A DNA stretch of 64,000 nucleotides from a virus. The DNA is taken from positions 1-64,000 of IMG/VR virus record IMGVR_UViG_3300010399_000034; one strand, written 5' to 3'. The notes under the pieces were generated by a model, which worked only from the letters and a program-made list of their open reading frames with translations, searched no databases and was not told the DNA's origin. Positions 1-63,983 of this stretch are shown one piece after another. How positions within the stretch are numbered: position 1 is the stretch's first letter; each line of letters begins with the position of its first letter. The translations under genes were made by a program, and so were the position numbers.

Positions 1-246
1 ACGTCGCTCACGACCGCATCGCGCCTCTGCGACCTGATCGATCAAGCGGACACCTCGCAGGGCAGCAACCCGTCGGTCCAGGGCGGTCCGTCGGCGTGGG
101 AGCTCGCGGCGGCGCGCTCCGAGCTCGCGCGACTCTACTCGCAGCAACAACAGCAAGCGCCTGCGGGGATGGACTGGACGAAGATCGCAATCGGCGCAGG
201 CATCCTCGGCGCCGTCGGTCTCGCGGCGTACGTCATCCTGAAGTGA
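1..246 (+). CDS. Partial (5'-truncated) protein with C-terminal membrane anchor
   Basis: Frame +1 open from base 1 to TGA 244-246, ending ...MDWTKIAIGAGILGAVGLAAYVILK*. Confidence 0.75.
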   Translation, partial: TSLTTASRLCDLIDQADTSQGSNPSVQGGPSAWELAAARSELARLYSQQQQQAPAGMDWTKIAIGAGILGAVGLAAYVILK

Positions 247-6609: not shown

Positions 6610-7377
6610 ATGCAGAACGCAGCATGTTTCCCGGTGACGGTCGAGCTCGACGAGGCTGGTAAGCCCGTCCACGCGCTCAACCAGATCACCAAGGTTCGTC
6701 TCGCCGACGGGCGAGAAGTGGCGATCGTCGACTGGACGTGGCGCCCGCTCTACTCGACCATCGACACGTTCTCGGGGTGGACGAACCTCGAGATTCGCGC
6801 CTTCACGTACTCCGCGGGCGATCAGATCTCCTGGTCGAACGGCGGCACGGTGCGCGAGACCGCGACGCTCGTGCACACGAACATCTCCAGCGCCTCCGAG
6901 ATGGACGCGCTCGAAGAGTTCCTCGTGTACGGAATGTGCGTCGAGGTCTATCGCTGTCTCCAGAACACCGGCGCGAGCACGATCGACTTCAACGGCTCGG
7001 GCCTTCCCGGACCGCTGCCGCAGGTCTGGCACGTCGCGATGCTTCAGGCGGCGACGATCCTCGAGCTCGAGGTCTCGCAGAAGGCGTATCAGCAGGCTTC
7101 GACCGGCTGGTTCGCTGCGGGCTTCGGCGCGTACGGAACGGGTGTCGACGACACGAACGAGTTCATGTTCGGCAACAACGGGCATCCGAGCCGCGAAGCC
7201 GTCGACATGTACCCGGTCCCGGTCCACATCGGCGGCACCGAGAAGTACAACGTGATCCTGCACAACCCCCTCGGTCGTGCGATCAACTACGTCTCGGCGA
7301 CGAACGGTGCTCTCTCGAACATCGTCATCCGCCTCCGCATCAACCTGATGGGCCTCCACAAGCGGCCGAGCGCCTGA
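6610..7377 (+). CDS. Putative capsid protein 1 (single jelly-roll-like), paralog family A
   Basis: Beta-rich; shares KVRLADGR..W..PLYST and C-terminal GLxKRP with the next two genes. Confidence 0.6.
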   Translation: MQNAACFPVTVELDEAGKPVHALNQITKVRLADGREVAIVDWTWRPLYSTIDTFSGWTNLEIRAFTYSAGDQISWSNGGTVRETATLVHTNISSASEMDALEEFLVYGMCVEVYRCLQNTGASTIDFNGSGLPGPLPQVWHVAMLQAATILELEVSQKAYQQASTGWFAAGFGAYGTGVDDTNEFMFGNNGHPSREAVDMYPVPVHIGGTEKYNVILHNPLGRAINYVSATNGALSNIVIRLRINLMGLHKRPSA

Positions 7378-7398
7378 TCGGGCGGGAGTACACGCATC

Positions 7399-8115
7399 AT
7401 GGCTCAGCTAGACAAGATCAGATTCGCAGACGGCCGCGTGCAACGGCCGGGCGACTGGACGGCCTCGCCGCTCTACTCGACGGTCGAGATCGACGACGCG
7501 GCAGCGCTTCCTCCTCTCGACGGCTTCTCCTACGGCAACGGTGGCGATGTGCCGGGCTCGGTCGGTCCGCGACAGAGCACGATTGTCGACACCAACATGG
7601 AAGGCCAGGGCTCGATCCTCGCCGAGAACGAAGAGCTTCTCCTCTTCGGCCTCTGCATCGAGCTTATCCAGATCACCGCCGCGACCACGACGAACTTCTT
7701 CACGTCGCAGGAAGCGTGGTGTCCGGACCCGCCGCTCGTCAGCGCGACGAACTGTCAGCGCATTCTTCGCGACACCTTGGTGCGGATGAAGATCGCCGCG
7801 ACCAAGGACTACCTCGCGGTCCCGCTCGGGTGGCTGCCAGGTGCGCGTGGTGTCGACCACACGTACGGCTCGGCGCGCTCGGTCGGCTCGACGTGGACCG
7901 AAGGCGTCTTCGTCGGCTACAACGGCGCGAACTACGAGGGGGCGCATCGTCTCTTCGCGACGCCGCACCAGGTCGCACCGGGCGAGCAGTTCATCGTGCG
8001 CCTCGAGTTCCCCTTCGGGACGATCTCGGGCCTCGAGTTCGGCCTCCCGGATACGAGTGCGCGCATCAAGGCGCGTATCTACCAACGCGGTCTTCGCCGC
8101 CGCCCGGTCGCGTGA
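7399..8115 (+). CDS. Putative capsid protein 2 (single jelly-roll-like), paralog family A
   Basis: KIRFADGR..DW..PLYST, TNMEGQG, PHQVAPGEQFIVRL, GLRRRP. Confidence 0.6.
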   Translation: MAQLDKIRFADGRVQRPGDWTASPLYSTVEIDDAAALPPLDGFSYGNGGDVPGSVGPRQSTIVDTNMEGQGSILAENEELLLFGLCIELIQITAATTTNFFTSQEAWCPDPPLVSATNCQRILRDTLVRMKIAATKDYLAVPLGWLPGARGVDHTYGSARSVGSTWTEGVFVGYNGANYEGAHRLFATPHQVAPGEQFIVRLEFPFGTISGLEFGLPDTSARIKARIYQRGLRRRPVA

Positions 8116-8128
8116 AGAGGAAGCAAGC

Positions 8129-8827
8129 ATGTCCAGCCTGAACAAGGTCCGACTCGCAGACGGCAGAGAGATCGCGATCGCCGAGTGGTACCATCAGCCG
8201 CGCTACTCGACGATCGAGTTCGCCGCGACGTCCGCAGTGAACCTGCGGATGTGGAACTACACGGTCGGCAACAACGTCTCCTCGGTCGGTACGGCGGCAC
8301 GGCAATCGACCGAAGCCGACACGAACCAGATCAAGAAGAAGGCGATGAACATGGACGAAGCTCTCATCGTCATGGCCATCACCTACGAGATCTTCGCGCT
8401 CACGAGCGACGTCGACAACAGCGCGCTCGTCGTGGCGCCCGAGCCGATGACGCTCTCCACCGACGTCCGCCGTCTTCAGCACCAAGGCATCTTCGAGCTG
8501 AAGGTCGGCGCCGGCATCAAGAAGCCGCAGTACGAGGTTCCGTTCGCCTGGCTCTGCCAGTCGCCCGGCACCAAGGCCTACGCTTCGCCCGCCGGCACGA
8601 CGACGGTCCGCATCGACTACGGCACCGGCGGCGAGATCAGCGCCGACGATCAAGAGCTGCTCGCGCTTCCGATCTACATCGGCGGCTTCGGGCAGCAGGC
8701 CAAGCCGGGCAACGCAATGTTCTTCGAAGGCCGTTTCTACAACGGCGACGGCGGCGCCTTCACCGGGCTTCGGCAGAACATGCGGATCCGGTTCTACCTC
8801 GACGGCCTCCAGAAGCGGCCGGCCTGA
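8129..8827 (+). CDS. Putative capsid protein 3 (single jelly-roll-like), paralog family A
   Basis: GAGG RBS, ATG 8129; KVRLADGREIAIAEW..PRYST, LPIYIGG, GLQKRP. Confidence 0.6.
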   Translation: MSSLNKVRLADGREIAIAEWYHQPRYSTIEFAATSAVNLRMWNYTVGNNVSSVGTAARQSTEADTNQIKKKAMNMDEALIVMAITYEIFALTSDVDNSALVVAPEPMTLSTDVRRLQHQGIFELKVGAGIKKPQYEVPFAWLCQSPGTKAYASPAGTTTVRIDYGTGGEISADDQELLALPIYIGGFGQQAKPGNAMFFEGRFYNGDGGAFTGLRQNMRIRFYLDGLQKRPA

Positions 8828-8855: not shown

Positions 8856-8920
8856 GGAAGCCCCTCGGAAGGCGCTCACCTTCGGCAATCTGAGGGGCGC
8901 ATCTTCCGAGGGGTTTTCTC
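8856..8920 (+). terminator. Strong hairpin with T-rich tail after the three capsid paralogs
   Basis: GGAAGCCCCTCGGAAG...CTTCCGAGGGGTTTTC followed by TCTT. Confidence 0.55.
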
Positions 8921-8923
8921 TTC

Positions 8924-10063
8924 ATGCGCGCTGACGACGACACGCTCCTCCACGAACCTCGGGCCCTTTGGACCGTGCAGGCGTTGCTTGCCGAGGCGCT
9001 CGAGGCGAACGTCGAAGAAGACATCGTCGTCTCGACCGGGCGCGTGCTAGTCCCGAAGGACGACTTCAAGAACACGAGCCGCTATCCGATCACGCTGACA
9101 AAGATGTGCGTCTGCGCGATCGGCTACACGTATCGCGAGTACGAGTTCACGGCGACGCCGGAGGCCGTGCACAACTCGATGATGGCGGCACAGAACCAGG
9201 TGAAGATCTTCCTCTCGTCGCCGTATTCGTTTCATCTCGACCGCAACGACTTCATCGTCAATCAGGCGCCGCCCGATCCGACGGCCGAGCCTGGCATGCG
9301 CTACGACCCAACTATTGGAAGCTACTCTTCGGGCATCTGGGGGCTCAATCGCTGGACGTTCGATCGCTGCCTCTGGCTCCCGCGCAAGGCGACGCTTCAA
9401 CTCGACATCGGCACGTGGATCATTCCGGATCTCGGCTTCGGCGCGCCGCCGGCTATCTACACGTCGGTGCAGTTCGACGAGCCGCAGACTGGAATCCTCG
9501 GCGGTAACAATCGTCTCCGTGCACGCGCGGCGATCCCCGCTGTCTTCGATACGCATGCTGCCGCAGTCGGGATCCCTGCGCCTGACGCGTTCGGTGCTGG
9601 CAATGGCGGCACGAGCTTCGTGACCTACCCAGCCGAAGGGCTCTTCAAGCCGAACGTCTTCAACCGGCAGGAGAGCGATCGTGGCCAGGACATGAACGCC
9701 TTCACCGGCTTCGCCGTCGCGCTTGATCAGATCGACTACGACCTCGCGATTCAGGCACTCGGTGTGGACTTCGCCGCCAAGCCGATCGCGCCGATCGGGA
9801 CGCGCATCGTCACGCGCGCCAAGTGCAGCAACGGCGGTACGAACGAGTGGTGGTGGCGGCCTAACGCGCCGCTCTGTCTGGTCTCGCCGACGATGGGTCC
9901 GGCGACGGTCTACACTCTGCGCAAGCCCATCGTGCTCGGCCCCGGAGAGCAGCTCGAGGTGGAGCTTCAGGCGCCGCCGATCGTGACCATCGACGACACA
10001 CCCTTTCAACCCACCTACCAGATCGGTGTGTCGTTCACCGGCTACGCGACCATCGAAGGTTGA
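8924..10063 (+). CDS. Putative capsid/vertex protein with tandem beta-rich domains (family B)
   Basis: FKNTSRYPITLT, WTFDRCLWL, NGGTNEWW, PIVLGPGEQLEVEL, VSFTGY; aligns by eye with 10066-10998. Confidence 0.55.
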   Translation: MRADDDTLLHEPRALWTVQALLAEALEANVEEDIVVSTGRVLVPKDDFKNTSRYPITLTKMCVCAIGYTYREYEFTATPEAVHNSMMAAQNQVKIFLSSPYSFHLDRNDFIVNQAPPDPTAEPGMRYDPTIGSYSSGIWGLNRWTFDRCLWLPRKATLQLDIGTWIIPDLGFGAPPAIYTSVQFDEPQTGILGGNNRLRARAAIPAVFDTHAAAVGIPAPDAFGAGNGGTSFVTYPAEGLFKPNVFNRQESDRGQDMNAFTGFAVALDQIDYDLAIQALGVDFAAKPIAPIGTRIVTRAKCSNGGTNEWWWRPNAPLCLVSPTMGPATVYTLRKPIVLGPGEQLEVELQAPPIVTIDDTPFQPTYQIGVSFTGYATIEG

Positions 10064-10065
10064 TC

Positions 10066-10998
10066 ATGGACAAAAACGAGTACATGCAGCGCCTCGCCAA
10101 GCGCAACCTCGTCGAGAAGGACGCGAAGCACTTCGAGCCGCGCCTCTTCTTCGATTCGTTCGTGTTCGACGGGCAGACGGCACGCGTCTTCTCGCAGCCC
10201 GACGTCTATCGCAATGGCGAGAAGTTCCCGTTCCGGGTCACGCACCTCAGTGCGTCGATGCTCTTCACGTCGGACGAGCTTCAGAACCCGGTGGGCGGCG
10301 ACGAGCGGATGATTCAACGCTACTCGATGCGCATCAGGGCGCATGGCGTCTACTACCAGAACTCCGACGTCACACCGATCCCGCTTTGGGCGAATAAGCC
10401 GGTGGCTGCCGCAGACGTTACGACACTCTCGCAGTCGTGCTGGCGCTTCGACAAGCCTTTCATCCTCGGCAATCGTGACACCTTTCAAGTCGAGGTCTCG
10501 CTTATCGTTGCGCCCGACACCGATCTGACGGAGCGCGTCGCGGTGACTTTCGCGGGTCTAGGGCTCTACTCGCGGATGCCGAAGATCTTGACGAGCGAGA
10601 TCGATCTCGCGGACACGCTCGTCGCGACGATGGACACCAACGACTTCCGCAACGACGGCACCGAGCCGCTCGAAGTGACGCACATGGTCGTGCATCACAC
10701 GCCGTCGGTCGAAGTGACCAACCCAGTCGGCAACATCCGCAATGTCAAGCTGCGTGTGCGCGCCAATGGCAATGGTACCAATCAATGGTGGAACTGGACC
10801 GCGGTCTCGGCTGCGACGCAGCTCGTTCCAGCGCAGCTCTTCGGGCTCACGACGGGGCGCTCGGTCGTGCACGAGCTCCCCGGTGACGGCTGGCTCTGGT
10901 ATCCGAACGAAGGTGTGACGGTCGAGGTCGAGTCGCAGGACACGTCGCGCCGGGATACGGTGCTCATCGCCATGGCCGGCTACATCATGGTGACGTGA
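10066..10998 (+). CDS. Putative capsid/vertex protein with tandem beta-rich domains (family B)
   Basis: Internal repeat YRNGEKFPFRVTH / FRNDGTEPLEVTH and VAVTFAG / VLIAMAGY; GNGTNQWW. Confidence 0.55.
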   Translation: MDKNEYMQRLAKRNLVEKDAKHFEPRLFFDSFVFDGQTARVFSQPDVYRNGEKFPFRVTHLSASMLFTSDELQNPVGGDERMIQRYSMRIRAHGVYYQNSDVTPIPLWANKPVAAADVTTLSQSCWRFDKPFILGNRDTFQVEVSLIVAPDTDLTERVAVTFAGLGLYSRMPKILTSEIDLADTLVATMDTNDFRNDGTEPLEVTHMVVHHTPSVEVTNPVGNIRNVKLRVRANGNGTNQWWNWTAVSAATQLVPAQLFGLTTGRSVVHELPGDGWLWYPNEGVTVEVESQDTSRRDTVLIAMAGYIMVT

Positions 10999-12937: not shown

Positions 12938-13486
12938 GTGGCTGAAACCGACGCGCAAAAGAGCCGACGCCGAAATCGGATGGATGCTCGCAACGAGCAG
13001 GGCGATCTCGTCGCCTACGAAGACGAAGGTGGGCAGCGTCTCATCTGGACCGGCGACGAAGAAGCGCCGTACGTCAAGGTCGTCAACAGCATCGACGATC
13101 CTGTCGTCATCTCCCCCGTCGAAGGCGGGACAGCGGTCATCTTCTACCGCGGCACGGCGACGCAGCAGGTCGCGATCGCAACGGGCGCAGTCAAGGTCCG
13201 GCAGGTCCGTGCGATCCTCGAAGCGAGCGTTGTCACAGATCGCTTCTTCATGATCTTCGACGCGGCCGCGCCCGTGGCGAACGGGGCCACGCCTGTGTGG
13301 CAGGCGCTCGTTCCAGGCGGGCTTACAACGGTCACCACGCATGCAGAGGCGGGCGACGACTTCGAACCGATCGGTGGTCTTGCGCTCACGGACGGTTTCG
13401 TGCTTGCGATTTCTACGACGCCTGGAACGTTGACGTTGCCGGGTGTCGCCGATACGTACTTCGAGGCCACCTACACGACGAGTTGA
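12938..13486 (+). CDS. Putative penton/vertex base protein (beta-sandwich)
   Basis: GAGGGG RBS; all-beta pattern (FMIFDAAAPVANGATP...GLALTDGFVLAIST); directly upstream of the spike gene. Confidence 0.45.
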   Translation: MAETDAQKSRRRNRMDARNEQGDLVAYEDEGGQRLIWTGDEEAPYVKVVNSIDDPVVISPVEGGTAVIFYRGTATQQVAIATGAVKVRQVRAILEASVVTDRFFMIFDAAAPVANGATPVWQALVPGGLTTVTTHAEAGDDFEPIGGLALTDGFVLAISTTPGTLTLPGVADTYFEATYTTS

Positions 13487-13491
13487 GCAGT

Positions 13492-15426
13492 ATGGGCTAC
13501 TTTGCAATCCCCTCCGCAGGTATCGGCCTCCCGAGTTCCGGCGTCGGCATCGACCTCTACGTTCGCACGACCGGCGACGACAACAACCCAGGCACCGCAG
13601 CGTTGCCGCTATTGACGGTGACCGAAGCCGTTCGGCGGCTCGACTCGCTCGCCAAGATCACCGGCGTCAACGGCGTCGGCGCCACGGTGCACGTGGGCGC
13701 GGGCACCTTTCAATGGACCATGGGCCTTGGTCCGTTCTTCCTGAGCGAAGCGCTCTTCTTCATCGGGGATGGTGGCGGGCTCGTCGGCGATGACGGCTTC
13801 ACGGTACTTCTCGCGTCGACCGCGGCTCTTGCTGGCTCGGGTCTCGCAGTCGTCAAGTCGAGCGGGCTCACCGTTAATCAGTATCGCGGGAAGACGATCC
13901 AGATCCTCTCTGGCGCTGCCGCAGGCGATCGTCGAACGATTCGAAACAACACGGCGACGGACATCATCCCGTCCGGCAACTTCTCCGCCGCGATCGCGAC
14001 AAACGATACGTATCGGATCCTCGAACCGAACTGCTTCCTAGAGTTCGAGAGCTCCGCGACAGCCACGCCGCTGACGACCGACTTCCCACCAATCGCGAAG
14101 TCGTGTGGCGGCACAGTCGCGCAGGTCGACACGAACGGGACCGGCACTGCGACCGTCGCTCCGTCGATCTACTTCATCAACTTCCGTTTCCAGAACCGCA
14201 CCGGCGATGCGGATCCGACGGCTCGAATCTGCATCATCGATTCGGCGGTGACGTTCTTCGGCGTCGAGCTTAATGCTGTCACGTCGAAGACGATGATCCC
14301 CGTCGTCGACAAGACGTCCATCCTGCAAGCCGGGATGGACTTCCTCGCGAGCACGCTCTGTCTCGCTGTTCGTCCCTTCGAGGCAGGGCTCGCGACGAGC
14401 CGTACGTCGTGGTCGGGTTGGGGCGTCTCGGGCCAGGGCGCGGGCTCCATTCTCTGGAACGCGACCGCGCGCTTCATGGGCTACATCGTCGAGACGCACT
14501 CGCTCTCGATCGAGGACTGCGAGTGGCGAGCATGCGGTGGCTCGGTCCTCGCCGACGCCGCGATGATCATCGCGCGGTGGGGCCACTTCACGTGCCTCAC
14601 GTCGGGCGCTCCGACGTTCCTCATTCGCTCGGAAGCAACGGCGGCGAGCACGGCGGCGCTCCTCGTGCGCGGCAACGGTCAAGCGCAGCTCCTCAACTGC
14701 ACCATCGAGAAACAGAACCAAGGCTTCGCCATCCTTGTGCGCGGTGACGGCGGCGTCGTCAACGCGATTCCGGGGCAGGTGGGGCTCGGAACCGGCGTCA
14801 CGCTGACTGGAGAGACGAGCGGCACCGCGCCGACGAACGCGATCTGCGTGACGTACGGCGGCCAGCTCAGCTACATCGCGACGCCGACGATCTCTGGCTT
14901 CACGACGGGGACGCAGCTCTGTGTTCGGCAGAACGGCCCTGCGGGCACTGTCGTTCAGCAGTGCGACTTCACCGACCTTGCAACGAACGGTGACTGCCTC
15001 CCTGCACAGCCGATCAAGCAGACGTGGAACGCGCTCGGTGCGCTCTCCGGCTTCGCTGACGGCGTTGCCGGCACGTTCACCGTCGCAGGCAGCTTCGACG
15101 GTATGCGCGAGATCACGCGTACGGGGCTCTGGGATACGTTCCGACTTCGGCAACTGGTCGACGGCACCGCGGGCACAACGAGCGTCGAACTGTTCCGTCG
15201 CCGTGGCGGCGTTCTGACCTCGCTCGGGATCGTGTCGCGACTCTTCGGCGGTGGCGCTTTCGCGGAGGCGTCGTTGACGCCGGCTTCTGCTGCGCTTCGC
15301 GCGCTCTCCATCGGCGATGTGCTCGTCGTGCAGTTCACGGCGCGGCAGACGAACGGCGAGACGGTCACGGTCGAGCTCCTCGGCGACGTGGATGGCCGCT
15401 GGGGTCGTATCACGCGCGTCGCCTGA
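13492..15426 (+). CDS. Putative spike/receptor-binding protein with parallel beta-helix (pectin lyase-like) region
   Basis: LYVRTTGDDNNPGTAALPLLTVTEA matches the YV..G.D.N.GT...P..TI..A cap of beta-helix proteins; G/T/A-rich. Confidence 0.65.
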   Translation: MGYFAIPSAGIGLPSSGVGIDLYVRTTGDDNNPGTAALPLLTVTEAVRRLDSLAKITGVNGVGATVHVGAGTFQWTMGLGPFFLSEALFFIGDGGGLVGDDGFTVLLASTAALAGSGLAVVKSSGLTVNQYRGKTIQILSGAAAGDRRTIRNNTATDIIPSGNFSAAIATNDTYRILEPNCFLEFESSATATPLTTDFPPIAKSCGGTVAQVDTNGTGTATVAPSIYFINFRFQNRTGDADPTARICIIDSAVTFFGVELNAVTSKTMIPVVDKTSILQAGMDFLASTLCLAVRPFEAGLATSRTSWSGWGVSGQGAGSILWNATARFMGYIVETHSLSIEDCEWRACGGSVLADAAMIIARWGHFTCLTSGAPTFLIRSEATAASTAALLVRGNGQAQLLNCTIEKQNQGFAILVRGDGGVVNAIPGQVGLGTGVTLTGETSGTAPTNAICVTYGGQLSYIATPTISGFTTGTQLCVRQNGPAGTVVQQCDFTDLATNGDCLPAQPIKQTWNALGALSGFADGVAGTFTVAGSFDGMREITRTGLWDTFRLRQLVDGTAGTTSVELFRRRGGVLTSLGIVSRLFGGGAFAEASLTPASAALRALSIGDVLVVQFTARQTNGETVTVELLGDVDGRWGRITRVA

Positions 15427-36569: not shown

Positions 36570-37448
36570 TCATGCGTCCCTCATCTTCTTCCGGACCTGC
36601 CGGAGTAGCTTTGCCGACTCGAGCGCGGCTGCTTCGTCGAGGTAGCCGTCGGTCGTCTCGGGCGAGTCGTGGTTCAAGATCTTCTGAACAGCGAACCTGT
36701 TACCAGAGATCATGCCTGCTTGCAATGCTACGGTGCGACGAAGCCGATGCAAATAGATTCTGTCCTCGATGCCCGCAGCGGCCGCGAGCTCGTGAAGCTT
36801 GCGCCGACAGGCCTGATACGCTGCGCCGTTCGCGGTCCAGTCGTCCGTCTTGCTGACGGCCGTGGCGACGAGCTGACCTTCGCCGAGGCGATCGCGCAGG
36901 CGCTTCCATTCCCGCTTGGCGCCGAGCACCGAATAGACGATCGGCTTACTCCCCTTCACCACGATCCGTGTGATCCCGTCCTCGCGTGCGAATCCGGCAT
37001 CGATGACCCCAGCGTCGGTCCGCAGCACGTCCGAGACGCGCAGAGCCGAGCTGCACATCACGTCGATCACCCGGCCGGCCGTCGTCTCGTCTGCCTCTAC
37101 GAGTCGAAGGAACGGCCTCCACAGCTCGATCGGGATGGACACGGCCTCCTTGAGCCGCTTGGGCTCCTTGCGCCTCTTCCTCTTGCGGTGCGACGCCGGC
37201 TCGGGCGGGAGCTCGGCGGGCGGTGGAAGCCTGTTCCGGCGCCCCTCAGATTCGCAGAAGTCGGCCCAGAGGGCCCACGCCCAGCGGTAGTCACGCAGGC
37301 GCTTGCGGAGCATTTGCGAGGCCGGCGGGCTCGTCCCGTGGTCGCGCATCGTCCTCACGTCGTTCGCAGCCTTCCGCGCCGAGGTGATCGCCAGCTTCTC
37401 GCGATCGATCATCCACGCACGAAAGCGGTCGAGTGCTTCGGCGTTCAC
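36570..37448 (-). CDS. Tyrosine recombinase/integrase
   Basis: Catalytic set R (LRVSD), K (VKGSK), HxxR (HRLRR), H (LNH), Y (TDGY); GTG start overlapping the upstream stop. Confidence 0.85.
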   Translation of the reverse strand: MNAEALDRFRAWMIDREKLAITSARKAANDVRTMRDHGTSPPASQMLRKRLRDYRWAWALWADFCESEGRRNRLPPPAELPPEPASHRKRKRRKEPKRLKEAVSIPIELWRPFLRLVEADETTAGRVIDVMCSSALRVSDVLRTDAGVIDAGFAREDGITRIVVKGSKPIVYSVLGAKREWKRLRDRLGEGQLVATAVSKTDDWTANGAAYQACRRKLHELAAAAGIEDRIYLHRLRRTVALQAGMISGNRFAVQKILNHDSPETTDGYLDEAAALESAKLLRQVRKKMRDA

Positions 37449-37936
37449 TTGGCCCTCGTGTATTCGTGGCCGCTCTCGGTGAGCTGCCAGATGCTTCCAC
37501 CGCGATACGCGCCAACGGAGAATGCGAGATCGCGACGTTTGAGCGCGTACAACGTCGCGTGGTGAAACGACCGCACCGATCCGCCGTGATCGATCGCGCG
37601 AAGGCACGCGAGCTGCACCTTGTTCAGGCGCCACTGGCGCGGGCGTGGACTCCGGATCTCGACGACGCGCTTGGTGATCGAAGGCCCCATGCAGCAAAGC
37701 CGAGCTCGGCCGAAGAACGAATCGTTCAGCGCGCACGTGCGGATCGCCGTCGCCGCGTTCTTCTGTTGCGCCCAAAGCAGCGCGCAGCGGACATGGAACG
37801 TCCAGCACCCGAGCTGCACCGGGTTGAATGCGAGCTTCTTACAGCGATCGCACGGCACCATCTTGCGGACTTCGTGCGATGTCTTCGGGCGATCGCATCG
37901 GCACGGCCCTTCTTTGATTTTGAGCTTGGGCATCAC
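37445..37936 (-). CDS. Cys-rich protein with C-terminal winged-helix-like segment
   Basis: CDRC..., LYALKRRDLA...WQLTESGHEY. Confidence 0.5.
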   Translation of the reverse strand: MMPKLKIKEGPCRCDRPKTSHEVRKMVPCDRCKKLAFNPVQLGCWTFHVRCALLWAQQKNAATAIRTCALNDSFFGRARLCCMGPSITKRVVEIRSPRPRQWRLNKVQLACLRAIDHGGSVRSFHHATLYALKRRDLAFSVGAYRGGSIWQLTESGHEYTRAK

Positions 37937-50731: not shown

Positions 50732-52216
50732 TCAGAGATGCGACTCGAGAATGTACGCAGTGATGTCGTCGACATCGCCAGGAGAGAGGATGAACGCCTC
50801 CCAGTTCGGATCGCCGAAGGCACGCAGTGCGAGCGCGACTTGTTCGCTGCCGACCGCCACCGCGTCGACCTGATCGTGCACGGTCGCTTCCACATTGTCG
50901 TGCAAGAAGCGCTGCCGATGCGAGACGCCGCGCAGGGTCGCGATCATGAACTGTGGAAGCGCAACGCCTGGCGACAAGCCGCACGAGGCGGGGACCTCGC
51001 CACACGGATCCCCGGTGCGCAGCGGACGCCCCGGATCATGCGCGTGGATAACGAACTCACCTGCGGGCGTCGCGAAGCGGTACGTGCGGAAGGGCAGCTC
51101 GGCCGTCGGTTGCAGCCCGCCCATCGCCGACGTGCGGTGAAGGCAGACTAGGCCGACGCCCGGGTAGTCGATAGGACCCTCCATGTCGACGTACGGCGCG
51201 CAGGTCCCGCTCGGACCAGGGGGCTGTCCGTTCGAACACGGGCATCCACCAGACGGGAGCGGCGGATACGGCGGCTGAAGCGGGTTGAACGGTGAAGTAC
51301 GCATCATCATCGGACCGCCGTGGCAGCTCGCGCAGAAGCCACGATGCGCCATGTCCGTGCTCAACATGGGTTGCTCGATCAAGAACTCGCGACCGCGCAG
51401 ACACGCTGCCGTCGCGTGCGGAGGGCACTCCGGCGGACCGGGCTCCGCGCCACCACGCGCCATCTCCGCGAGCTCGGGCGAGCTGAAGAGCGAACGCTGG
51501 AAGTTCGCGATGTCCGTTCGCTGCTGAGCGGTGAACGGGATCGTCGGCTGGAAGTGATCGTTGAGCGCGCTCCCAGCTTGATGCGCAAGCTCGAGCTCCC
51601 GCCCATCCCACATGATCCCGCCTCCGCGGTGATAGCCGAGCGGCGCGGTGCCGGGCTCCTTGAGCGCGACATTCAAGACGTGCGGTGAGGAGCGCCGTAC
51701 GATCACCTGGATACGGCCGTCGGGCAGCATGGTGATGTCGGGGTCGGTCCCGAGCTCGTCCACCGTAACGTTCGGCGGCAGGATGACCGGGATGCGGATG
51801 AGCGCGTGATCACGCAACACCGAGAAGTCGGCGCCCACGCCATCGTTCGAATCGATCGACCTGAAGAGTGGGTCCGTCGGGTCGACTGCAAAGACGGCTT
51901 GCGCAAACTCGTCGCTCAGATCGAACGTCGCGTGCTCCTGGACGAAGTGTGCCCCAGTCAACGCAGCGAGAAGCGGCGGCTGCCCTTCCATGATCCCGGT
52001 TCGATAACCGATGTTGAATGCACGCTCGACGGTCGTATGACACGACGCGCACGCGCGTCCATTCGTCCCGGGAGGCGAGTTATTGAAGAGCGCCCGTCCT
52101 CTCGCGATGCTCGCCAGCATCGACAGGTCGAGATCAGCCTCCGTACGATCGACAGGACCCGGATCCGCACAACCGCAAATCAACGCAGCTACTAGTGTCA
52201 ACAAGACTTGTCGCAT
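50732..52216 (-). CDS. Di-heme cytochrome c peroxidase/MauG-like lipoprotein
   Basis: LICGC lipobox; two CxxCH (ACASCH, FCASCH); MWDGR; TLRGV...FLHD. Confidence 0.8.
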   Translation of the reverse strand: MRQVLLTLVAALICGCADPGPVDRTEADLDLSMLASIARGRALFNNSPPGTNGRACASCHTTVERAFNIGYRTGIMEGQPPLLAALTGAHFVQEHATFDLSDEFAQAVFAVDPTDPLFRSIDSNDGVGADFSVLRDHALIRIPVILPPNVTVDELGTDPDITMLPDGRIQVIVRRSSPHVLNVALKEPGTAPLGYHRGGGIMWDGRELELAHQAGSALNDHFQPTIPFTAQQRTDIANFQRSLFSSPELAEMARGGAEPGPPECPPHATAACLRGREFLIEQPMLSTDMAHRGFCASCHGGPMMMRTSPFNPLQPPYPPLPSGGCPCSNGQPPGPSGTCAPYVDMEGPIDYPGVGLVCLHRTSAMGGLQPTAELPFRTYRFATPAGEFVIHAHDPGRPLRTGDPCGEVPASCGLSPGVALPQFMIATLRGVSHRQRFLHDNVEATVHDQVDAVAVGSEQVALALRAFGDPNWEAFILSPGDVDDITAYILESHL

Positions 52217-59676: not shown

Positions 59677-62526
59677 TCACACCGAATACCAGTCATCGCC
59701 GATCTTGGCGACGGCAGGAAATGGCATCGCATCTGCCCCAGGAACCAATGTTAGCTTCTGCGACATACAACGCTCGAGGAGCGCCGCGACCTTGTCGGCT
59801 TTGTGCTCGTCGCATTCAACGTAGATCGCGTCGTGGACCTGCGCGATGATGATCGCAGTCGGGTCGACGCTCGGAAGTTGATGCGCAAGTTCGAGCATCG
59901 AGAGGTTCATCATCGATGCGACCGTTGAGTTCTTGCTGATGATTCCTGCACTGTCGTAGCGGTGGAGGTCGTGCTGGACAGCAAGCGTGTACAAGTCTGC
60001 GCTTTCCTCGAGCTGACACACTGCCGCAACGGTCCCGGTCGAATAGAGCTCAGCGTCGCGCCAGTCACCAGCAGCCTCCGTCATACGCTGAAGCGTGTGC
60101 GGGTTCGTTGTACCGCCGTGCGCCAACCGAGACCAAAGCACGTACATGCTCCGCTCCGTGGCGTACGAGAACGGGTTTCGTGGGTAGGTTTCAAGAAACC
60201 GATCACGCGCGGCACGACCAAGACGATCATCACGACTGAAACGTTGTCGATCCGTTGGATCGCCGTAAGCGAGCTGGCTCCGCAGCAGGGAGCCAGCGAA
60301 GTTCAGCCGCCACGCCATGTGTCCATCGCGATCGGAGACATACGGTCCGTCGATACGCGAGGTCACGCCGCAACTTCGTGCGAGCAGTTGCAGGTCACGA
60401 AGCAGCTCTAGGTTCGGCGTGTTGGAAGACGGCTGCCCCATAGACAGCGTTCCGTCAGCGTCCATGTAGCCGAGAAGGAACGCTTTTCGCGCCGACAAGC
60501 AAGCACGCCAGATCGAATCTGGTACGCGTTTCGTCTTGGCACGCCAAGTCGGGTCAACCCCCCAGGAGGGGAGAAGCTGTCGAAGGCGACTATCTGCGGC
60601 CACGCTGATTGCCGTCAATGGTCCGTGAACCTGGGCCTTCCAGAGGCCGCCGTATTGTATCGCCCAGCGTGTAAAGGACGCAGCGTACTCGTCATGCGCG
60701 AAGCGTTTTACACGTGTACCGAAGCACCACACAAGTTGGTCTGTGGAGCCGGTTCGTTGCGACCACGACCCGTTTCCGATCCAATACCCGAGCCAGTACG
60801 CGTCGGCGTCATTGAAAGGGGCACCGAACTCCTGCGCTGAGGCAAGCGGCTGCGCAATACGGTCGCCTTCACGTAACTCTCCAACAGCGCGCCATTCGAA
60901 CTCGATTCCGTCGTCACGAAGCACGCGAAGATAGTGTTCTTCGTTCGTCTGAAGTACATGCCCGTTGGTGAGCTTCGTCTCCCATAGTTGCTCAGTCCGC
61001 TTTCCAAGCGTCATCGATGGAGCCCATTGATTTGGCGCGCCGAGCGACGCGGAGCACGTCGCATGTTCCACCGGGAGATAGCCTTCTGTTGTAAGAACGC
61101 GCGTCCCGCCTCGAACGCACTGCATCTTGTAGTTGTATACAACTGTCGCATCGATCAAGAGAAGCGGGAACTCGCGACGACGACCGATGAGCGCGTCGGT
61201 GACACGGCCAGTTCGCTTGGCTTCAGTGAGCTCGCGCTCGCGCCACGGCCGCACCGACGGGAACGCTTTGAAGATCGCGGCGAGGATCGTCTCGACCGTC
61301 GCGATGTCGATCGGCATGCCCTCGTAGCCGCCGTCGTAGATGGAGTTGAGGATCGTCTCCGACCCAGCGCCGTAGAAGCTGCCGTAGATGACGCGCTTCT
61401 CGAGATCGCGCAGCGCTGACCGCGTCTTGTCGTCGGCCTTGAGGTAGCCGTCCTTGAACGCGATCGCGCTCACGTACGCGTGTGGGTCGCAGTCGGGCTC
61501 GTACTTGCGCGCTTCGTCAGCGTTGACGCAGAGCGAGATGAGCTTCTCGTCGCCGCAGAGCGCACCGAGCACGCGAAGCTCAGCCTGTCCGAGGTCGGCG
61601 CCGACGATCTTGCGGCCCGGCGGCGCGACGATGCACTCGCGGATGCCGGGCACCTCGAGCGTGATCTTCCCTGGCTTCGCCTTCGCGAGGAAGATCTCGT
61701 CGCCAGGAAAGAGCGGAAGCTGCCATGGACCGCCGTGCGGTCGGCCCTTGCTGTCGAGTGCCTCGAAGATCGCAAGCATGAGAAGGATGCGCTTCCCCCA
61801 GTTCATTAGGTTCGGCTCGCTGCTCCATCTCCCGGTCCTCGCACCGAGCGGCTTCCAACGCACGCGGATGCGCCAGTCCTGCGAGACCGGCATCCCCTCG
61901 ATGTACGTCGACTTGATCTTCTCCCAGCGACGATAGTCAAGGAGCAGATCGACGAACGGATGACCCTTGTAAGAGAGCAACGACGATTTATCTGTCGATG
62001 GCTGCCCTTGTGGATGCGTCTTGCTCGGGTCGGTGTACTTCATCGGAAGCAGCCGACACGGCCCGTTCTTGTCGTAGAGCGCCCACGCGAGCTGCGGAGG
62101 ACTCGTAGGGCTAAAGTCTGGCCGACCCGTGAATGCACGCAGGAGCTCGACCGAACGCGCCATGTAGAAATCAGAACGCTGCGACCAGCGGATCCACCGT
62201 TCTCGACTCACTGGCAAGCCGGCGCGCTCGACGTCCTTCGCGACGTGGAACATCCCGACGTCGAGGTCATGGACGAAGCGTGCGTTCTCTGCTTCGAGCT
62301 CGGTGAGCTGCGAGAGCATGGAGAGCGTCGTATTGTAAACGTCGCGACCGTTGTAAGCGAAGAGCTGCTCGTTCGACTCCCAGACCTGCTGCCCGCCCTT
62401 CTCCTTCGGCGGCTTCCACGGCGGCGTGTCGGTGTAGCAGCCGGCGATGTGTTGCAAGCGATGAGGCTCGTCGGGATGAACGGCGTTGTGCGCGATCTCG
62501 GTGTCGTAGACGTAGCCGCGAGTCAT
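59677..62526 (-). CDS. polA: Family A DNA polymerase (C-terminal exonuclease half plus polymerase) containing an intein
   Basis: RTGRWSSEPNL, motif A ADLGQAELR, motif B R..EK..IYG..YG, motif C QVHDAI. Confidence 0.9.
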   Translation of the reverse strand: MTRGYVYDTEIAHNAVHPDEPHRLQHIAGCYTDTPPWKPPKEKGGQQVWESNEQLFAYNGRDVYNTTLSMLSQLTELEAENARFVHDLDVGMFHVAKDVERAGLPVSRERWIRWSQRSDFYMARSVELLRAFTGRPDFSPTSPPQLAWALYDKNGPCRLLPMKYTDPSKTHPQGQPSTDKSSLLSYKGHPFVDLLLDYRRWEKIKSTYIEGMPVSQDWRIRVRWKPLGARTGRWSSEPNLMNWGKRILLMLAIFEALDSKGRPHGGPWQLPLFPGDEIFLAKAKPGKITLEVPGIRECIVAPPGRKIVGADLGQAELRVLGALCGDEKLISLCVNADEARKYEPDCDPHAYVSAIAFKDGYLKADDKTRSALRDLEKRVIYGSFYGAGSETILNSIYDGGYEGMPIDIATVETILAAIFKAFPSVRPWRERELTEAKRTGRVTDALIGRRREFPLLLIDATVVYNYKMQCVRGGTRVLTTEGYLPVEHATCSASLGAPNQWAPSMTLGKRTEQLWETKLTNGHVLQTNEEHYLRVLRDDGIEFEWRAVGELREGDRIAQPLASAQEFGAPFNDADAYWLGYWIGNGSWSQRTGSTDQLVWCFGTRVKRFAHDEYAASFTRWAIQYGGLWKAQVHGPLTAISVAADSRLRQLLPSWGVDPTWRAKTKRVPDSIWRACLSARKAFLLGYMDADGTLSMGQPSSNTPNLELLRDLQLLARSCGVTSRIDGPYVSDRDGHMAWRLNFAGSLLRSQLAYGDPTDRQRFSRDDRLGRAARDRFLETYPRNPFSYATERSMYVLWSRLAHGGTTNPHTLQRMTEAAGDWRDAELYSTGTVAAVCQLEESADLYTLAVQHDLHRYDSAGIISKNSTVASMMNLSMLELAHQLPSVDPTAIIIAQVHDAIYVECDEHKADKVAALLERCMSQKLTLVPGADAMPFPAVAKIGDDWYSV
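59929..61119 (-). mobile_element. Intein with LAGLIDADG homing endonuclease in the DNA polymerase
   Basis: ...YKMQ|CVRGGTRVLTTEG...GIISKN|STV; AYWLGYWIGNG and AFLLGYMDADG; 397 aa. Confidence 0.9.
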
Positions 62527-63983
62527 GCGACACCCCACACGCTCTGTATGACCTGCGTGTCGTAAATCCCGTTTTGAAAACACTTCTTGAAGCGCTCGTC
62601 TTGCAACCAGCGAACGACTGTCTCGAGCAGCGGATCACCGCGCTTCATCCCGATCGTGTTGAGAACGACGGCCGCTTCGCGTTGCGTCCAGTCGACTGTC
62701 GGTCGTCCCTTGTGCAGCCCGATGCAACGAATCTCCGTGACGGTCCACGGATCCTTCGAGTCGGTCTCGATGTCGACCGACGTGAAGAGTGGCGGCGTTT
62801 CATCGCCGAAGAGGTAGCGTTCCAGAAACTCGAGTGAAGCCTTGTAAGCTTCGGTCTTGACCAACGGCGCCTGATACTCCTGACCCGTACGAGCGAGCTC
62901 CGCCTCGAGCCCACACTCCATGTGATCGGGAAGAACGATGTACTGGTACTCCCACTTCGCATCTTCGGTCAGGAGCCGTTGCGCCTTGCGCAGATGTGCG
63001 AGCGACGCGTTGATCATGAACTGCCCGGCGGCCGTCTTCTTCTCCTTGCCGTCTGGCTGCCGTAGAAGGAACGCTGGGTGGTACGTCGGGATCACGTACG
63101 CGCACGGGAGATCCACGCGCGCGAACTCGTCCATCTTCGCGTAGTCGGGCGCGTGCCGACCACGATAGAGCGCGCCTGCTGACGCCATCAGCTTGTGCTG
63201 CGTCTTCCAGAGCTGAAGCTCGACCTGCTGTGTCTTGCGCCCAGCACACGTCGGACAGCGCTTCTTGCGCTTCTCGATCGTAACGGTGTCGTATCGGTGA
63301 CTCCATGCCGGAGCCATTGTCCCGCCGCCCTCGATACGGTCTTCATTCAACGCGCGATCGCTCACGAGGCCAGCGCAGACAAAGTCAGACAGGCCAGCCG
63401 CGCGAGCAGAGACCTGCTGTCCGCACCACGCGTCCCAACCCGGCGGAAGAAGCTGTTCGCTCTTACACTGCGCGCACTTCCACCACGCGAGCGTCATCTC
63501 GCCATTGCACTGCGGGCAGTTGAGGGGCTTGCCGGCAGAGTCCTTGAAGAGCGGAACGCGCGCCGTCTTGGCGACGAAGCGTCCGGTAAGCGCGGAGAGC
63601 GCGCCAGCTCCGAGCGCGACGATGACGCGCGGCTGAAGCATCTCGATCTCGGCGAGAAGGCGAGGACGACACTTCGGGATCGCCGCTTCGACTTGGTCGT
63701 CCTTCGTACCATGCTCAGGGAGGCAAAGCTCAGCGTTGGAAACGTAACAATGTCGTCGCTCTATACCAACCATCGAAAGGAGCTTGTCGAGCAGACTGCC
63801 GGAGCGGCCAACGAAGGGCACTTTGAGTTGTGCCTCCTGGAGACCTGGTCCTTCGCCGACGAGCATCAGCCCGTTGAACTCGTCAGGGCGCTGCGAAAGG
63901 CAGATCGTACGATCGCGCCGACCGACGAGCGGACAGCCCGCACAATCAGCGATCCGATGGTCGTACACGTACTGATACGCCAT
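62523..63983 (-). CDS. Uracil-DNA glycosylase family 4-like domain with Zn-ribbon insertion fused to N-terminal half of 3'-5' exonuclease
   Basis: CAGC, LVGEGPG..E....PFVGRSG, PTYHPAFLLR; then VDIETD (ExoI) and FQNGIYD (ExoII). Confidence 0.85.
   Translation of the reverse strand: MAYQYVYDHRIADCAGCPLVGRRDRTICLSQRPDEFNGLMLVGEGPGLQEAQLKVPFVGRSGSLLDKLLSMVGIERRHCYVSNAELCLPEHGTKDDQVEAAIPKCRPRLLAEIEMLQPRVIVALGAGALSALTGRFVAKTARVPLFKDSAGKPLNCPQCNGEMTLAWWKCAQCKSEQLLPPGWDAWCGQQVSARAAGLSDFVCAGLVSDRALNEDRIEGGGTMAPAWSHRYDTVTIEKRKKRCPTCAGRKTQQVELQLWKTQHKLMASAGALYRGRHAPDYAKMDEFARVDLPCAYVIPTYHPAFLLRQPDGKEKKTAAGQFMINASLAHLRKAQRLLTEDAKWEYQYIVLPDHMECGLEAELARTGQEYQAPLVKTEAYKASLEFLERYLFGDETPPLFTSVDIETDSKDPWTVTEIRCIGLHKGRPTVDWTQREAAVVLNTIGMKRGDPLLETVVRWLQDERFKKCFQNGIYDTQVIQSVWGVA

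What the first reader, a model, noticed from the sequence alone, without database searches (positions are those of the whole stretch)
8924..10998. Second paralog pair with an internal tandem duplication (double-jelly-roll-like)
Seen: 8924-10063 and 10066-10998 align by eye (FKN..YP..LT / YRN..FP..VT; W.FD...L; NG.TN.WW; terminal F/M-x-GY). The second protein clearly has two similar halves (YRNGEKFPFRVTH vs FRNDGTEPLEVTH; VAVTFAG vs VLIAMAG). PIVLGPGEQLEVEL echoes PHQVAPGEQFIVRL in family A. Inference: single- and double-jelly-roll-like proteins of shared ancestry may coexist in one genome, which would bear on how double jelly rolls arose by fusion.
Basis: partly seen in the sequence, partly recalled or inferred. 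Interest (0 to 1): 0.75.

Follow-up and report, generated by a model that had tools for sequence, protein, structure and literature searches.

The report
Two tandem-duplicated capsid-like virus genes
Two neighbouring genes of a complete 87-kb soil virus encode related proteins, each made of two copies of one beta-rich domain that can still be recognised by sequence, and they most likely form double-jelly-roll shell units of a large, undescribed, apparently tailless bacterial virus.

Summary
Genes 8924-10063 (B1, 379 aa) and 10066-10998 (B2, 310 aa) are clear paralogs: profile-profile probability 99.2%, E 1e-19, 285 colinear columns.

B2's two halves are homologous: E 2.9e-7 over 111 columns, score 45.5 against 11.2 +/- 1.8 in 40 column permutations. 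Cross-half matches show that B1 carries the same duplication and that it predates the B1/B2 split.

No Pfam, PHROG, NCBIfam or PDB sequence relative exists. The ESM Atlas model of B2 is of low confidence. Its only named structural neighbours are three double-jelly-roll families: GH172/DUF2961, DJR-like_dom and NCLDV capsid, at TM 0.56-0.61.

Kinship with family A rests on one 32-column motif only (E 3e-4).

The host record is a direct-terminal-repeat virus genome of 86.8 kb. It has no detectable terminase, portal, HK97 capsid or FtsK/A32 ATPase. The array A1-A2-A3-B1-B2 is kept in relatives down to about 25% identity.

The scan noted the same "three single plus two tandem" layout before on other DNA (e1-5795894). 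I could not show that it is kin to this locus.

The parts
8924..10063 (+). B1, 379 aa, 41.5 kDa, pI 4.8, no transmembrane segment. It is the two-domain paralog with insertions relative to B2.
   Evidence: The family has 32 proteins at E<=1e-3. Its profile matches the B2 profile at probability 99.2%, E 1.1e-19.
10066..10998 (+). B2, 310 aa, 35.0 kDa, pI 5.5, no transmembrane segment. It is the two-domain paralog whose halves are still alike. Its ATG lies 2 nt after the B1 stop, and its stop overlaps the next gene's ATG at 10998.
   Evidence: The family has 47 proteins. Among 1.84 billion representatives there are 151 hits at E<=1e-3, of which 125 are at <=1e-30.
10180..10560 (+). B2 first repeat (residues about 39-165). 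It begins with the F/Y-R-N-G-E-x-x-P-x-R-[IV]-T-H motif and ends with V-x-V-x-F-x-G.
   Evidence: hhalign of N-half against C-half.
10618..10983 (+). B2 second repeat (residues about 185-306). It begins with F-R-N-D-G-x-E-P-x-x-[IV]-T and ends with the A-x-x-G-Y strand. It carries the NGNGT..W loop.
   Evidence: Invariant columns are listed.
8936..9481 (+). B1 first domain (residues about 5-186), equivalent to the B2 first repeat.
   Evidence: B1N-B2N E 7.8e-21 over 147 columns. B1N-B2C E 5.5e-5 over 30 columns.
9797..10057 (+). B1 second domain core (residues about 292-378), equivalent to the B2 second repeat.
   Evidence: B1C-B2C E 5e-15 over 79 columns. B1C-B2N E 5.7e-8 over 46 columns.
9899..9994 (+). 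32-residue segment of B1 (residues 326-357, around P-I-V-L-G-P-G-E-Q-L-E-V). It is the only part of the B family that matches the family A profile.
6610..8827 (+). Family A: three tandem paralogs, A1 6610-7377, A2 7399-8115 and A3 8129-8827 (255, 238 and 232 aa). They lie directly upstream and are always syntenic with B1-B2.
   Evidence: A1 against A2 gives z 28.7. The A3 start was found. The A2 family has 119 proteins. Synteny.
8856..8918 (+). Long GC-rich hairpin between A3 and B1, followed by UUUUCUCUU. The Shine-Dalgarno-like GAGGGG of B1 lies in its 3' arm.
   Evidence: -56.2 kcal/mol, z -5.3, 0 of 200 shuffles fold as well. Hairpins at the same place in relatives.

Best explanation
B1 and B2 are paralogous structural proteins of a complete virus genome of about 86.7 kb from soil, apparently tailless.

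Shown:
- Each protein consists of two homologous beta-rich domains made by an ancient internal tandem duplication.
- That duplication came before the gene duplication that gave B1 and B2.

Inferred:
- The two domains are jelly rolls packed side by side, as in double-jelly-roll capsid proteins.
- The proteins form trimeric, pseudo-hexameric capsomers (homo- or heterotrimers).
- Together with the three family A proteins encoded just upstream, these capsomers tile an icosahedral shell.
- The shell probably assembles around a membrane and a condensed nucleoprotein core, not by motor-driven packaging.
For: Homology and duplication:
- B1 and B2 are paralogs, and the halves are homologous.
- Equivalent halves match far better (N-N E 8e-21, C-C E 5e-15) than opposite halves (6e-8, 5e-5, 3e-7), which gives the order of events.

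Fold:
- The Atlas model of B2 has as its only named structural neighbours GH172/DUF2961 (TM 0.61), DJR-like_dom PF21738 (TM 0.60) and NCLDV capsid (TM 0.56). Each aligns across both halves.
- DUF2961 is a DJR fold that clusters with viral DJR capsid proteins (PMC8812541, passages read).
- The nearest named clusters by language-model features carry the PM2 coat protein families P2_N and P2_C, at 0.79. That level is a lead only.
- A crude Chou-Fasman profile gives 41% strand, 6% helix and 15 strand segments for B2.

Protein properties: soluble and acidic, with no transmembrane segment.

Context:
- The genes sit in a co-oriented, translationally coupled block of unannotatable genes.
- The record has 124-bp direct terminal repeats and is held as a virus record.
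- TerL ATPase, Terminase_6N, Phage_portal, the HK97 Phage_capsid family, FtsK and Pox_A32 are over the cut-off in 0 of 4 related records, two of which have terminal repeats.
- No such family appeared in the Pfam scans.
- None appeared in the PHROG scans either. In one search only 25 of 43 matched PHROG families were shown.

Conservation:
- The array A1-A2-A3-B1-B2 is kept in L008, L010, L012, L016 (partial), L017, L019 and the 78-kb terminal-repeat genome G002, at 24-50% identity.
- In the G000-G002 comparison, the A and B genes are the only genes of the structural block detectable at E<=1e-5. That is the behaviour expected of core shell proteins.
Against: - No model of my own could be made.
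- The Atlas model is of low confidence (pLDDT 0.56, pTM 0.41), so the DJR reading rests on one indirect source.
- There is no sequence match to any DJR capsid family in Pfam, PHROGs or NCBIfam, or to PDB sequences.
- No FtsK-HerA/A32 packaging ATPase is present. Most DJR viruses have one (PMC5894146, passages read). Only a Sak4-like protein and a DUF3987 helicase carry a Walker A motif.
- A strong terminator-like hairpin sits between A3 and B1. It may make B1 and B2 less abundant than family A, which would make them minor, not major, shell proteins.
- Many nearly invariant residues of the B2 family are polar: E24, R26, N50, E52, N196, E200, H269. That would also fit a binding or catalytic site.
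- No particle, proteome or expression data exist.
Confidence: 0.55

Rival explanations
1. B1 and B2 are virion proteins with two tandem beta-sandwich domains, but they are not the shell-forming units. Family A would form the shell (an SPV1- or Helvetiavirae-like single-jelly-roll capsid). B1 and B2 would form vertex, peripentonal, spike-base or membrane-linking complexes.
For: - A terminator-like hairpin lies between A3 and B1, and B1's ribosome-binding site is inside its stem. Hairpins sit at the same place in 3 of 3 relatives folded (the third is weak, z -1.8).
- The word-based search returned more family A proteins (119) than B proteins (47 and 32).
Against: - The whole-length Atlas neighbours are DJR capsid-type families, not spike or adaptor folds.
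- B2 is as well conserved between distant lineages as A1 (E 5e-20 against 3e-26).
- The hairpin's function is unknown.
Confidence: 0.22
2. The genome is a tailed phage whose head, portal, terminase and tail genes have diverged beyond detection. B1 and B2 would then be accessory structural proteins, such as decoration, baseplate or fibre parts.
For: - The replication and nucleotide-metabolism genes are typical of tailed phages: PolA, SNF2, Sak4, DUF3987, MazG, nucleotide kinase, DUF3310.
- The Atlas cluster labels say 'commonest Uroviricota'.
Against: - TerL, portal and HK97 families are over the cut-off in 0 of 4 records in six-frame searches.
- No ORF of 400 aa or more is left as a terminase candidate. 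The 567-aa ORF ends in a hydrophobic anchor, the 741-aa ORF is acidic and coiled-coil-like, and the 709-aa ORF looks like a beta-helix. All three lack a canonical Walker A motif; the 709-aa ORF has a lone G-K-T.
- No tape-measure-sized gene lies in the structural block.
- The taxon labels of metagenomic clusters are automatic.
Confidence: 0.1
3. B1 and B2 are DJR-fold enzymes or carbohydrate binders of the cellular GH172/DUF2961 type, carried by the virus to act on host or virion glycans.
For: - GH172 is the best named structural neighbour (TM 0.61).
- Several nearly invariant residues are polar.
- A large glycan-synthesis block lies 8 kb downstream (GT2 fusion; UDP-glucose dehydrogenase).
Against: - There is no hit to the GH172 Pfam families even at E<=1.
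- DUF2961 genes are reported not to be associated with viruses (PMC8812541).
- The genes are tightly coupled to family A and to membrane-protein genes, not to the glycan block.
- Two paralogs kept side by side across the whole virus group fits structural parts better.
Confidence: 0.05

Closest known systems
Double-jelly-roll major capsid proteins of prokaryotic Varidnaviria (PRD1 P3, PM2 P2, STIV B345; names recalled). The PM2 P2_N/P2_C Pfam families were the nearest named feature clusters.
   Same: - Size of 310-379 aa.
- Two tandem beta-rich domains in one chain.
- Soluble and acidic.
- Encoded beside smaller beta-rich proteins and membrane-protein genes.
- The structural neighbours of the Atlas model are DJR families.
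   Different: - No sequence similarity to any of them.
- Two conserved paralogs instead of one gene.
- The halves are still alike in sequence. [quoted passage not shown]
- The genome is 78-87 kb, against roughly 7-18 kb for prokaryotic DJR viruses (PMC5894146).
- No FtsK-type ATPase.
DUF2961 / GH172 cellular DJR proteins (PF11175 and partners)
   Same: It is the best named structural neighbour (TM 0.61 by query). It is a DJR whose two domains stayed similar to each other (PMC8812541).
   Different: There is no Pfam match at E<=1. The context is viral, whereas DUF2961 is reported as not virus-associated. GH172 proteins are longer (529 aa in the neighbour cluster).
Portogloboviridae (SPV1): single-jelly-roll VP4 hexamers and VP10 pentamers, inner membrane, nucleoprotein core, no packaging ATPase
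   Same: Several jelly-roll-like paralogs, many membrane-protein genes, no packaging ATPase and a circular or terminally redundant dsDNA genome. The virion description comes from PMC8459092, passages read.
   Different: SPV1 infects archaea and has a 20-kb genome with single-domain capsid proteins only. No sequence match to any PDB chain was found. The fold comparison could not be run.
Helvetiavirae (Sphaerolipoviridae and kin): two adjacent single-jelly-roll capsid genes
   Same: Adjacent paralogous capsid-type genes, once proposed as the precursor state of DJR proteins (PMC8812541).
   Different: Here the duplicated units are already fused, and the fused gene is itself duplicated. Helvetiaviruses encode a packaging ATPase (recalled). 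No sequence relation was tested beyond the PDB search.

Membership tests
DJR major capsid protein (Bamfordvirae type) | Two tandem domains of common origin in one polypeptide | tested here: met
   B2 N-half against C-half: E 2.9e-7 over 111 columns, score 45.5 against a null maximum of 17.1 in 40 permutations. Cross-half matches with B1.
DJR major capsid protein (Bamfordvirae type) | Each domain is an eight-stranded jelly roll, and the two pack side by side | tested here: inconclusive
DJR major capsid protein (Bamfordvirae type) | Forms trimers with pseudo-hexagonal shape | not testable with these tools
DJR major capsid protein (Bamfordvirae type) | Sequence match to a described DJR capsid family | tested here: not met
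   There were no hits in Pfam or PHROGs at E<=1, or in NCBIfam. PDB profile searches at E<=10 gave only chance-level rows.
DJR virus morphogenetic module | FtsK-HerA / A32-type packaging ATPase | tested here: not met
   PF04665 and PF01580 are over the cut-off in 0 of 4 records. The only Walker A proteins are a Sak4-like protein and a DUF3987 helicase. Some DJR groups also lack the ATPase (Odin group, FLiP; PMC5894146).
DJR virus morphogenetic module | Accompanying single-jelly-roll minor (penton) protein | tested here: inconclusive
   Family A is beta-rich. Its Atlas neighbours are unnamed viral clusters, plus TM 0.39-0.42 to a GH172 beta-sandwich. The fold is not established.
GH172 / DUF2961 | Match to PF11175, PF28588 or PF28589 | tested here: not met
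   No Pfam hit at E<=1.
HK97-fold capsid (Caudoviricetes) | HK97-type capsid together with terminase and portal | tested here: not met
   PF05065, PF03354, PF03237 and PF04860 are over the cut-off in 0 of 4 records. B1 and B2 are predicted to be nearly all-beta.
Portogloboviridae-type single-jelly-roll capsid | Similarity to SPV1 VP4/VP10 | tested here: inconclusive
   No PDB chain was matched by the A or B profiles at sequence level. The fold comparison was not possible.

The most novel reading that the evidence does not exclude
B1 and B2 are the double-jelly-roll shell proteins of an undescribed, widespread lineage of large (about 68-89 kb) tailless bacterial viruses from soil and groundwater. 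These viruses have no packaging motor.

Their DJR would have arisen by its own tandem duplication of a single jelly roll, one that is still visible in sequence. It lies next to three single-domain relatives that share a motif with it. The locus would therefore preserve, in one genome, the single-to-double jelly-roll transition that has so far only been inferred from structures.
Probability: 0.3. Interest if true: 0.85.

Novelty: new variant of a known kind. Interest (0 to 1): 0.7.

Why it matters
Prokaryotic double-jelly-roll viruses are described as having genomes of about 7-18 kb, and nearly always a packaging ATPase (PMC5894146).

How the double jelly roll arose is an open debate. One view is fusion of two viral single jelly rolls. 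The other is capture of a cellular DUF2961-like protein. The debate has been argued from structures alone, because the two halves of viral DJR proteins no longer resemble each other in sequence (PMC8812541).

This family has halves that do align in sequence. It is duplicated again into two conserved paralogs, and it sits beside three smaller beta-rich paralogs. Its genomes are five times larger than the known range and have no motor. It would therefore give a sequence-level handle on that question, and it would point to a large unexplored group of tailless phages.

Tried and rejected
Structure and binding:
- Complex prediction (three copies of B2) was not available. Nothing can be said about trimers.

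Sequence searches that found nothing:
- PDB profile searches with the B2, B1, A and deep B2 alignments gave only chance-level rows: collagenase-family protease E 0.062, azurin 0.031, a picornavirus-like VP3 0.46, and a polyketide synthase 1.6.
- tblastn of B2, A2 and B1 against 50,697 GenBank phage records gave no match.
- IMG/VR and the GTDB genomes, searched with the B2 alignment, gave no relative.

Spurious distant hits: the far hits of the representative search to giant FG-GAP/Ig-repeat proteins are spurious by their Pfam content (one of the three was scanned).

Bicupin reading: I considered it because of the His and Glu invariants. I rejected it because there are no cupin Pfam hits and no cupin among the Atlas neighbours.

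Recent gene conversion as the source of the A-B1 motif: rejected, because the motif is a family-level consensus in both profiles.

Sequencing runs: one soil run holds the stretch and may be its source. No RNA holder is listed.

Literature: four keyword searches listed no paper on phages of about 80 kb with DJR-like paralogs. These are listings only and the searches were narrow. Supplementary files were not consulted.

Earlier notes of the scan: look-ups by sequence with P0021 and P0022, and by relatives, found no indexed look-alike. The kinship of e1-5795894 to this locus is therefore unverified.
Full report
**What is there.** The window is the first 64 kb of a single-contig record of 86,806 bp. 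Its first 124 bases recur at its end, and the collection holds it as a virus record with direct terminal repeats. At the finding's coordinates lie two co-oriented ORFs with coding-type base composition (GC3 0.82-0.84). B1 is 8924-10063 (379 aa). B2 starts at ATG 10066 and ends at 10998 (310 aa). B2's start lies two bases after the B1 stop, and B2's stop overlaps the ATG of the next gene, so the genes are translationally coupled. Both proteins are acidic and have no hydrophobic segment of transmembrane type.

**The paralog pair.** At single-sequence level the likeness is modest: BLASTP E 0.004, and Smith-Waterman z 4.9 with 0 of 300 shuffles reaching the score. I collected each family: 47 proteins for B2 and 32 for B1. 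Compared as profiles, they align colinearly over 285 columns with probability 99.2% and E 1.1e-19. B1 and B2 are paralogs.

**The internal duplication.**
- The two halves of B2 give z 7.5, with 0 of 300 shuffles.
- Profiles of 45 sequences give E 1e-3 over 115 columns.
- The exhaustive representative search found 151 proteins at E<=1e-3, of which 125 were at <=1e-30. Adding these gave a 148-sequence alignment. With it, N-half against C-half gives probability 93.2% and E 2.9e-7 over 111 columns, nearly the whole domain.
- The score of 45.5 compares with 11.2 +/- 1.8 (maximum 17.1) in 40 column permutations, and with E 0.035 for the reversed template.
- B1's own halves are not significantly alike (E 0.035). 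However, B1C matches B2N (E 5.7e-8) and B1N matches B2C (E 5.5e-5). Equivalent halves match far better: N-N 7.8e-21 and C-C 5e-15. All six reversed controls stay at E>=0.035.

So the tandem duplication is ancestral to both genes and predates the B1/B2 gene duplication. B2 kept the likeness and B1 lost most of it.

**What the domains are.** No described family matches.
- B1 and B2 have no significant Pfam or PHROG match at E<=1; the only rows are three chance-level B1 matches at E 0.098-0.45.
- NCBIfam at E<=1 gives nothing.
- The PDB sequence profiles give only chance-level rows.
- GenBank phage records give no match.

My own structure prediction was not possible. The only structural evidence is therefore the ESM Atlas, which holds this exact protein with a low-confidence model (pLDDT 0.56, pTM 0.41). 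Among its 30 nearest models, the only named family sets are three:
- GH172/DUF2961: TM 0.61, residues 8-310.
- DJR-like_dom: TM 0.60, residues 21-310.
- NCLDV major capsid protein: TM 0.56, residues 18-310.

All three are double-jelly-roll families. For DUF2961 this is stated in PMC8812541 (passages read). By language-model features, the nearest named clusters carry the PM2 coat protein families, at 0.79, which the tool itself rates as a lead only. A crude propensity profile on the alignment gives 41% strand, 6% helix and 15 strand segments. I read this as moderate, single-source support for a double-jelly-roll-like build.

**Relation to family A.** Upstream lie three paralogs: A1 6610-7377, A2 7399-8115 and A3 8129-8827. 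A1 against A2 gives z 28.7, and the A3 start was found.
- A 53-sequence family A profile matches the B family in one place only.
- Against B2N, B2C and B1N, the best alignments fall at the topologically equivalent spot but are not significant: E 0.099, 0.057 and 0.49. For B2N and B2C the scores lie within or just above the permutation null; B1N was not permuted.
- In both A and B1 the motif is followed, after 10-20 residues, by the last predicted strand.
- The Atlas neighbours of A2 are large unnamed viral clusters (TM 0.67-0.74). There is also only a weak match to a GH172 beta-sandwich, at TM 0.39-0.42.

Common ancestry of A and the B halves is thus possible but not shown.

**Context and relatives.**
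- *Synteny.* The order (5983 gene)-A1-A2-A3-B1-B2-(10998 gene)-(11355 membrane protein) recurs in the metagenome loci L008, L010 and L012, and partly in L016. It also recurs in the IMG/VR records behind L017 and L019. In the 78,056-bp terminal-repeat genome G002, five genes of 255, about 230, 258, 378 and 326 aa stand in the same order, at only 24-31% identity to the window's proteins.
- *Shared genes.* Between G000 and G002 the shared genes are A1, A2, B1, B2 and replication genes: PolA, UDG, SNF2 helicase, DUF3987 helicase, an exonuclease and an integrase. Three further genes also match: a 204-aa ORF, a 344-aa ORF in the glycan block and a 155-aa ORF. No other gene of the structural block is detectable at E<=1e-5.
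- *Genome size.* Contigs that carry family members cluster at 68-89 kb.
- *Missing hallmark genes.* Six-frame searches of four records gave no match over the cut-off for TerL ATPase, Terminase_6N, Phage_portal, HK97 Phage_capsid, FtsK or Pox_A32 (0 of 4 each). The two sub-threshold rows are a 20-residue P-loop match in G003 and an 11-bit match containing a stop codon in G002.
- *Family scans of the window's genome.* Pfam scans of the ORFs and PHROG scans (in one search only 25 of 43 families were displayed) showed only replication, nucleotide-metabolism, glycan, integrase, ParB and M23 peptidase functions.
- *Walker A motifs.* Only a Sak4-like protein and the DUF3987 helicase carry one.
- *Habitat.* The source is a soil metagenome. 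Relatives come from soil, sediment and groundwater contigs.

**How it most likely works.** The A and B genes are the conserved core of the only plausible morphogenetic block of a genome that lacks all tailed-phage hallmark genes.
- Shown: the homology, the duplication order, the conservation and the absence of detectable hallmark genes.
- Inferred: B1 and B2 are double-jelly-roll-like shell proteins that trimerise into pseudo-hexameric capsomers. With the family A proteins they tile an icosahedral shell. With no packaging ATPase, and with many small basic and membrane proteins nearby (other notes on this window), assembly around a condensed core, as described for SPV1 (PMC8459092), is the most economical model.

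**Points against B1/B2 as the major component.**
- A very stable hairpin with a U-rich tail lies between A3 and B1 and sequesters B1's ribosome-binding site. Hairpins occur at the same place in three relatives.
- Many nearly invariant residues are polar.
- The rival in which family A forms the shell and B1/B2 form special capsomers or vertex parts therefore remains substantial.

**Comparison with what is known.**
- Published prokaryotic DJR viruses have genomes of roughly 7-18 kb and a single DJR gene. Most have an FtsK-type ATPase, although the Odin group and FLiP lack one (PMC5894146, passages read).
- The ANME-1 tailless viruses with new DJR capsid proteins have 10-11 kb genomes (PMC9894754, passages read).
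- For viral DJR proteins, no pairwise sequence similarity is detectable even within the family, and one of the two domains diverged more strongly. Whether the duplication happened once in cells or independently is stated as open (PMC8812541).

The present family differs in several ways: it has no sequence tie to any DJR family, its halves are alike in sequence, it comprises two conserved paralogs, its genomes are five times larger and there is no motor. It fails the sequence-membership and ATPase tests of the DJR module. The fold and trimer tests could not be run. I therefore file it as a new variant that probably works like a DJR capsid protein, not as a proven member.

**Earlier notes of this scan.** These are AI notes and are not evidence. 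Other windows were reported with large tailless jelly-roll viruses. One has the same "three single plus two internally duplicated" layout, on a 69-kb genome (e1-5795894). I could not link that genome to this one by sequence look-up.

Noticed in passing
window 8856-8918; L008:6660-6785, L010:8699-8815, L016:1042-1190: A long GC-rich hairpin (-56 kcal/mol, z -5.3) with a U-rich tail lies between A3 and B1 and covers B1's Shine-Dalgarno-like GAGGGG. Hairpins with GCCCCUC/GAGGGGC-type arms sit at the same intergenic place in three diverged relatives (z -3.3, -4.0, -1.8). It may be an attenuator, a terminator or a transcript-stabilising element that sets the A:B ratio.
   Followed up: partly
whole record (window 1-124 and genome 86683-86806): A 124-bp direct terminal repeat shows that the record is a complete or circularly permuted genome of about 86.7 kb. 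The distant relative G002 (78,056 bp) has a like repeat starting at 77,929.
   Followed up: yes
window 59677-62583 (-) and genome 73684-76386 (-): The family A DNA polymerase and the SNF2 helicase both carry LAGLIDADG or Hint domains, which suggests that two replication genes are interrupted by inteins.
   Followed up: no
whole record and G001-G003: No P-loop packaging ATPase or terminase is detectable. The only Walker A proteins are a Sak4-like annealing protein (genome 66371-67123) and a DUF3987 helicase (genome 83161-84510). How an 87-kb genome gets into a particle is unexplained.
   Followed up: partly
window 13297-15426 (+): A 709-aa ORF rich in Gly, Thr, Ala and Ser has short repetitive strands that look like a beta-helix spike. 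It has no Pfam or PHROG hit. A homolog lies downstream of B2 in L019 (29% identity over 404 residues).
   Followed up: no
window 50732-52216 (-): A 494-aa ORF has weak di-haem cytochrome c peroxidase (MauG-like) and cytochrome c matches. This is unusual cargo for a virus genome.
   Followed up: no
L003, L005, L007 (contig names): Three related contigs come from groundwater samples whose names contain '01um'. If that means a 0.1-um filter fraction, it would fit free particles larger than 100 nm. This is a reading of contig names only.
   Followed up: no
G003 (record behind L019): IMG/VR classes this 63.9-kb relative as a provirus, and the window's genome encodes a tyrosine integrase (36570-37808) and a ParB. 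The group may be temperate. Host flanks were not examined.
   Followed up: no
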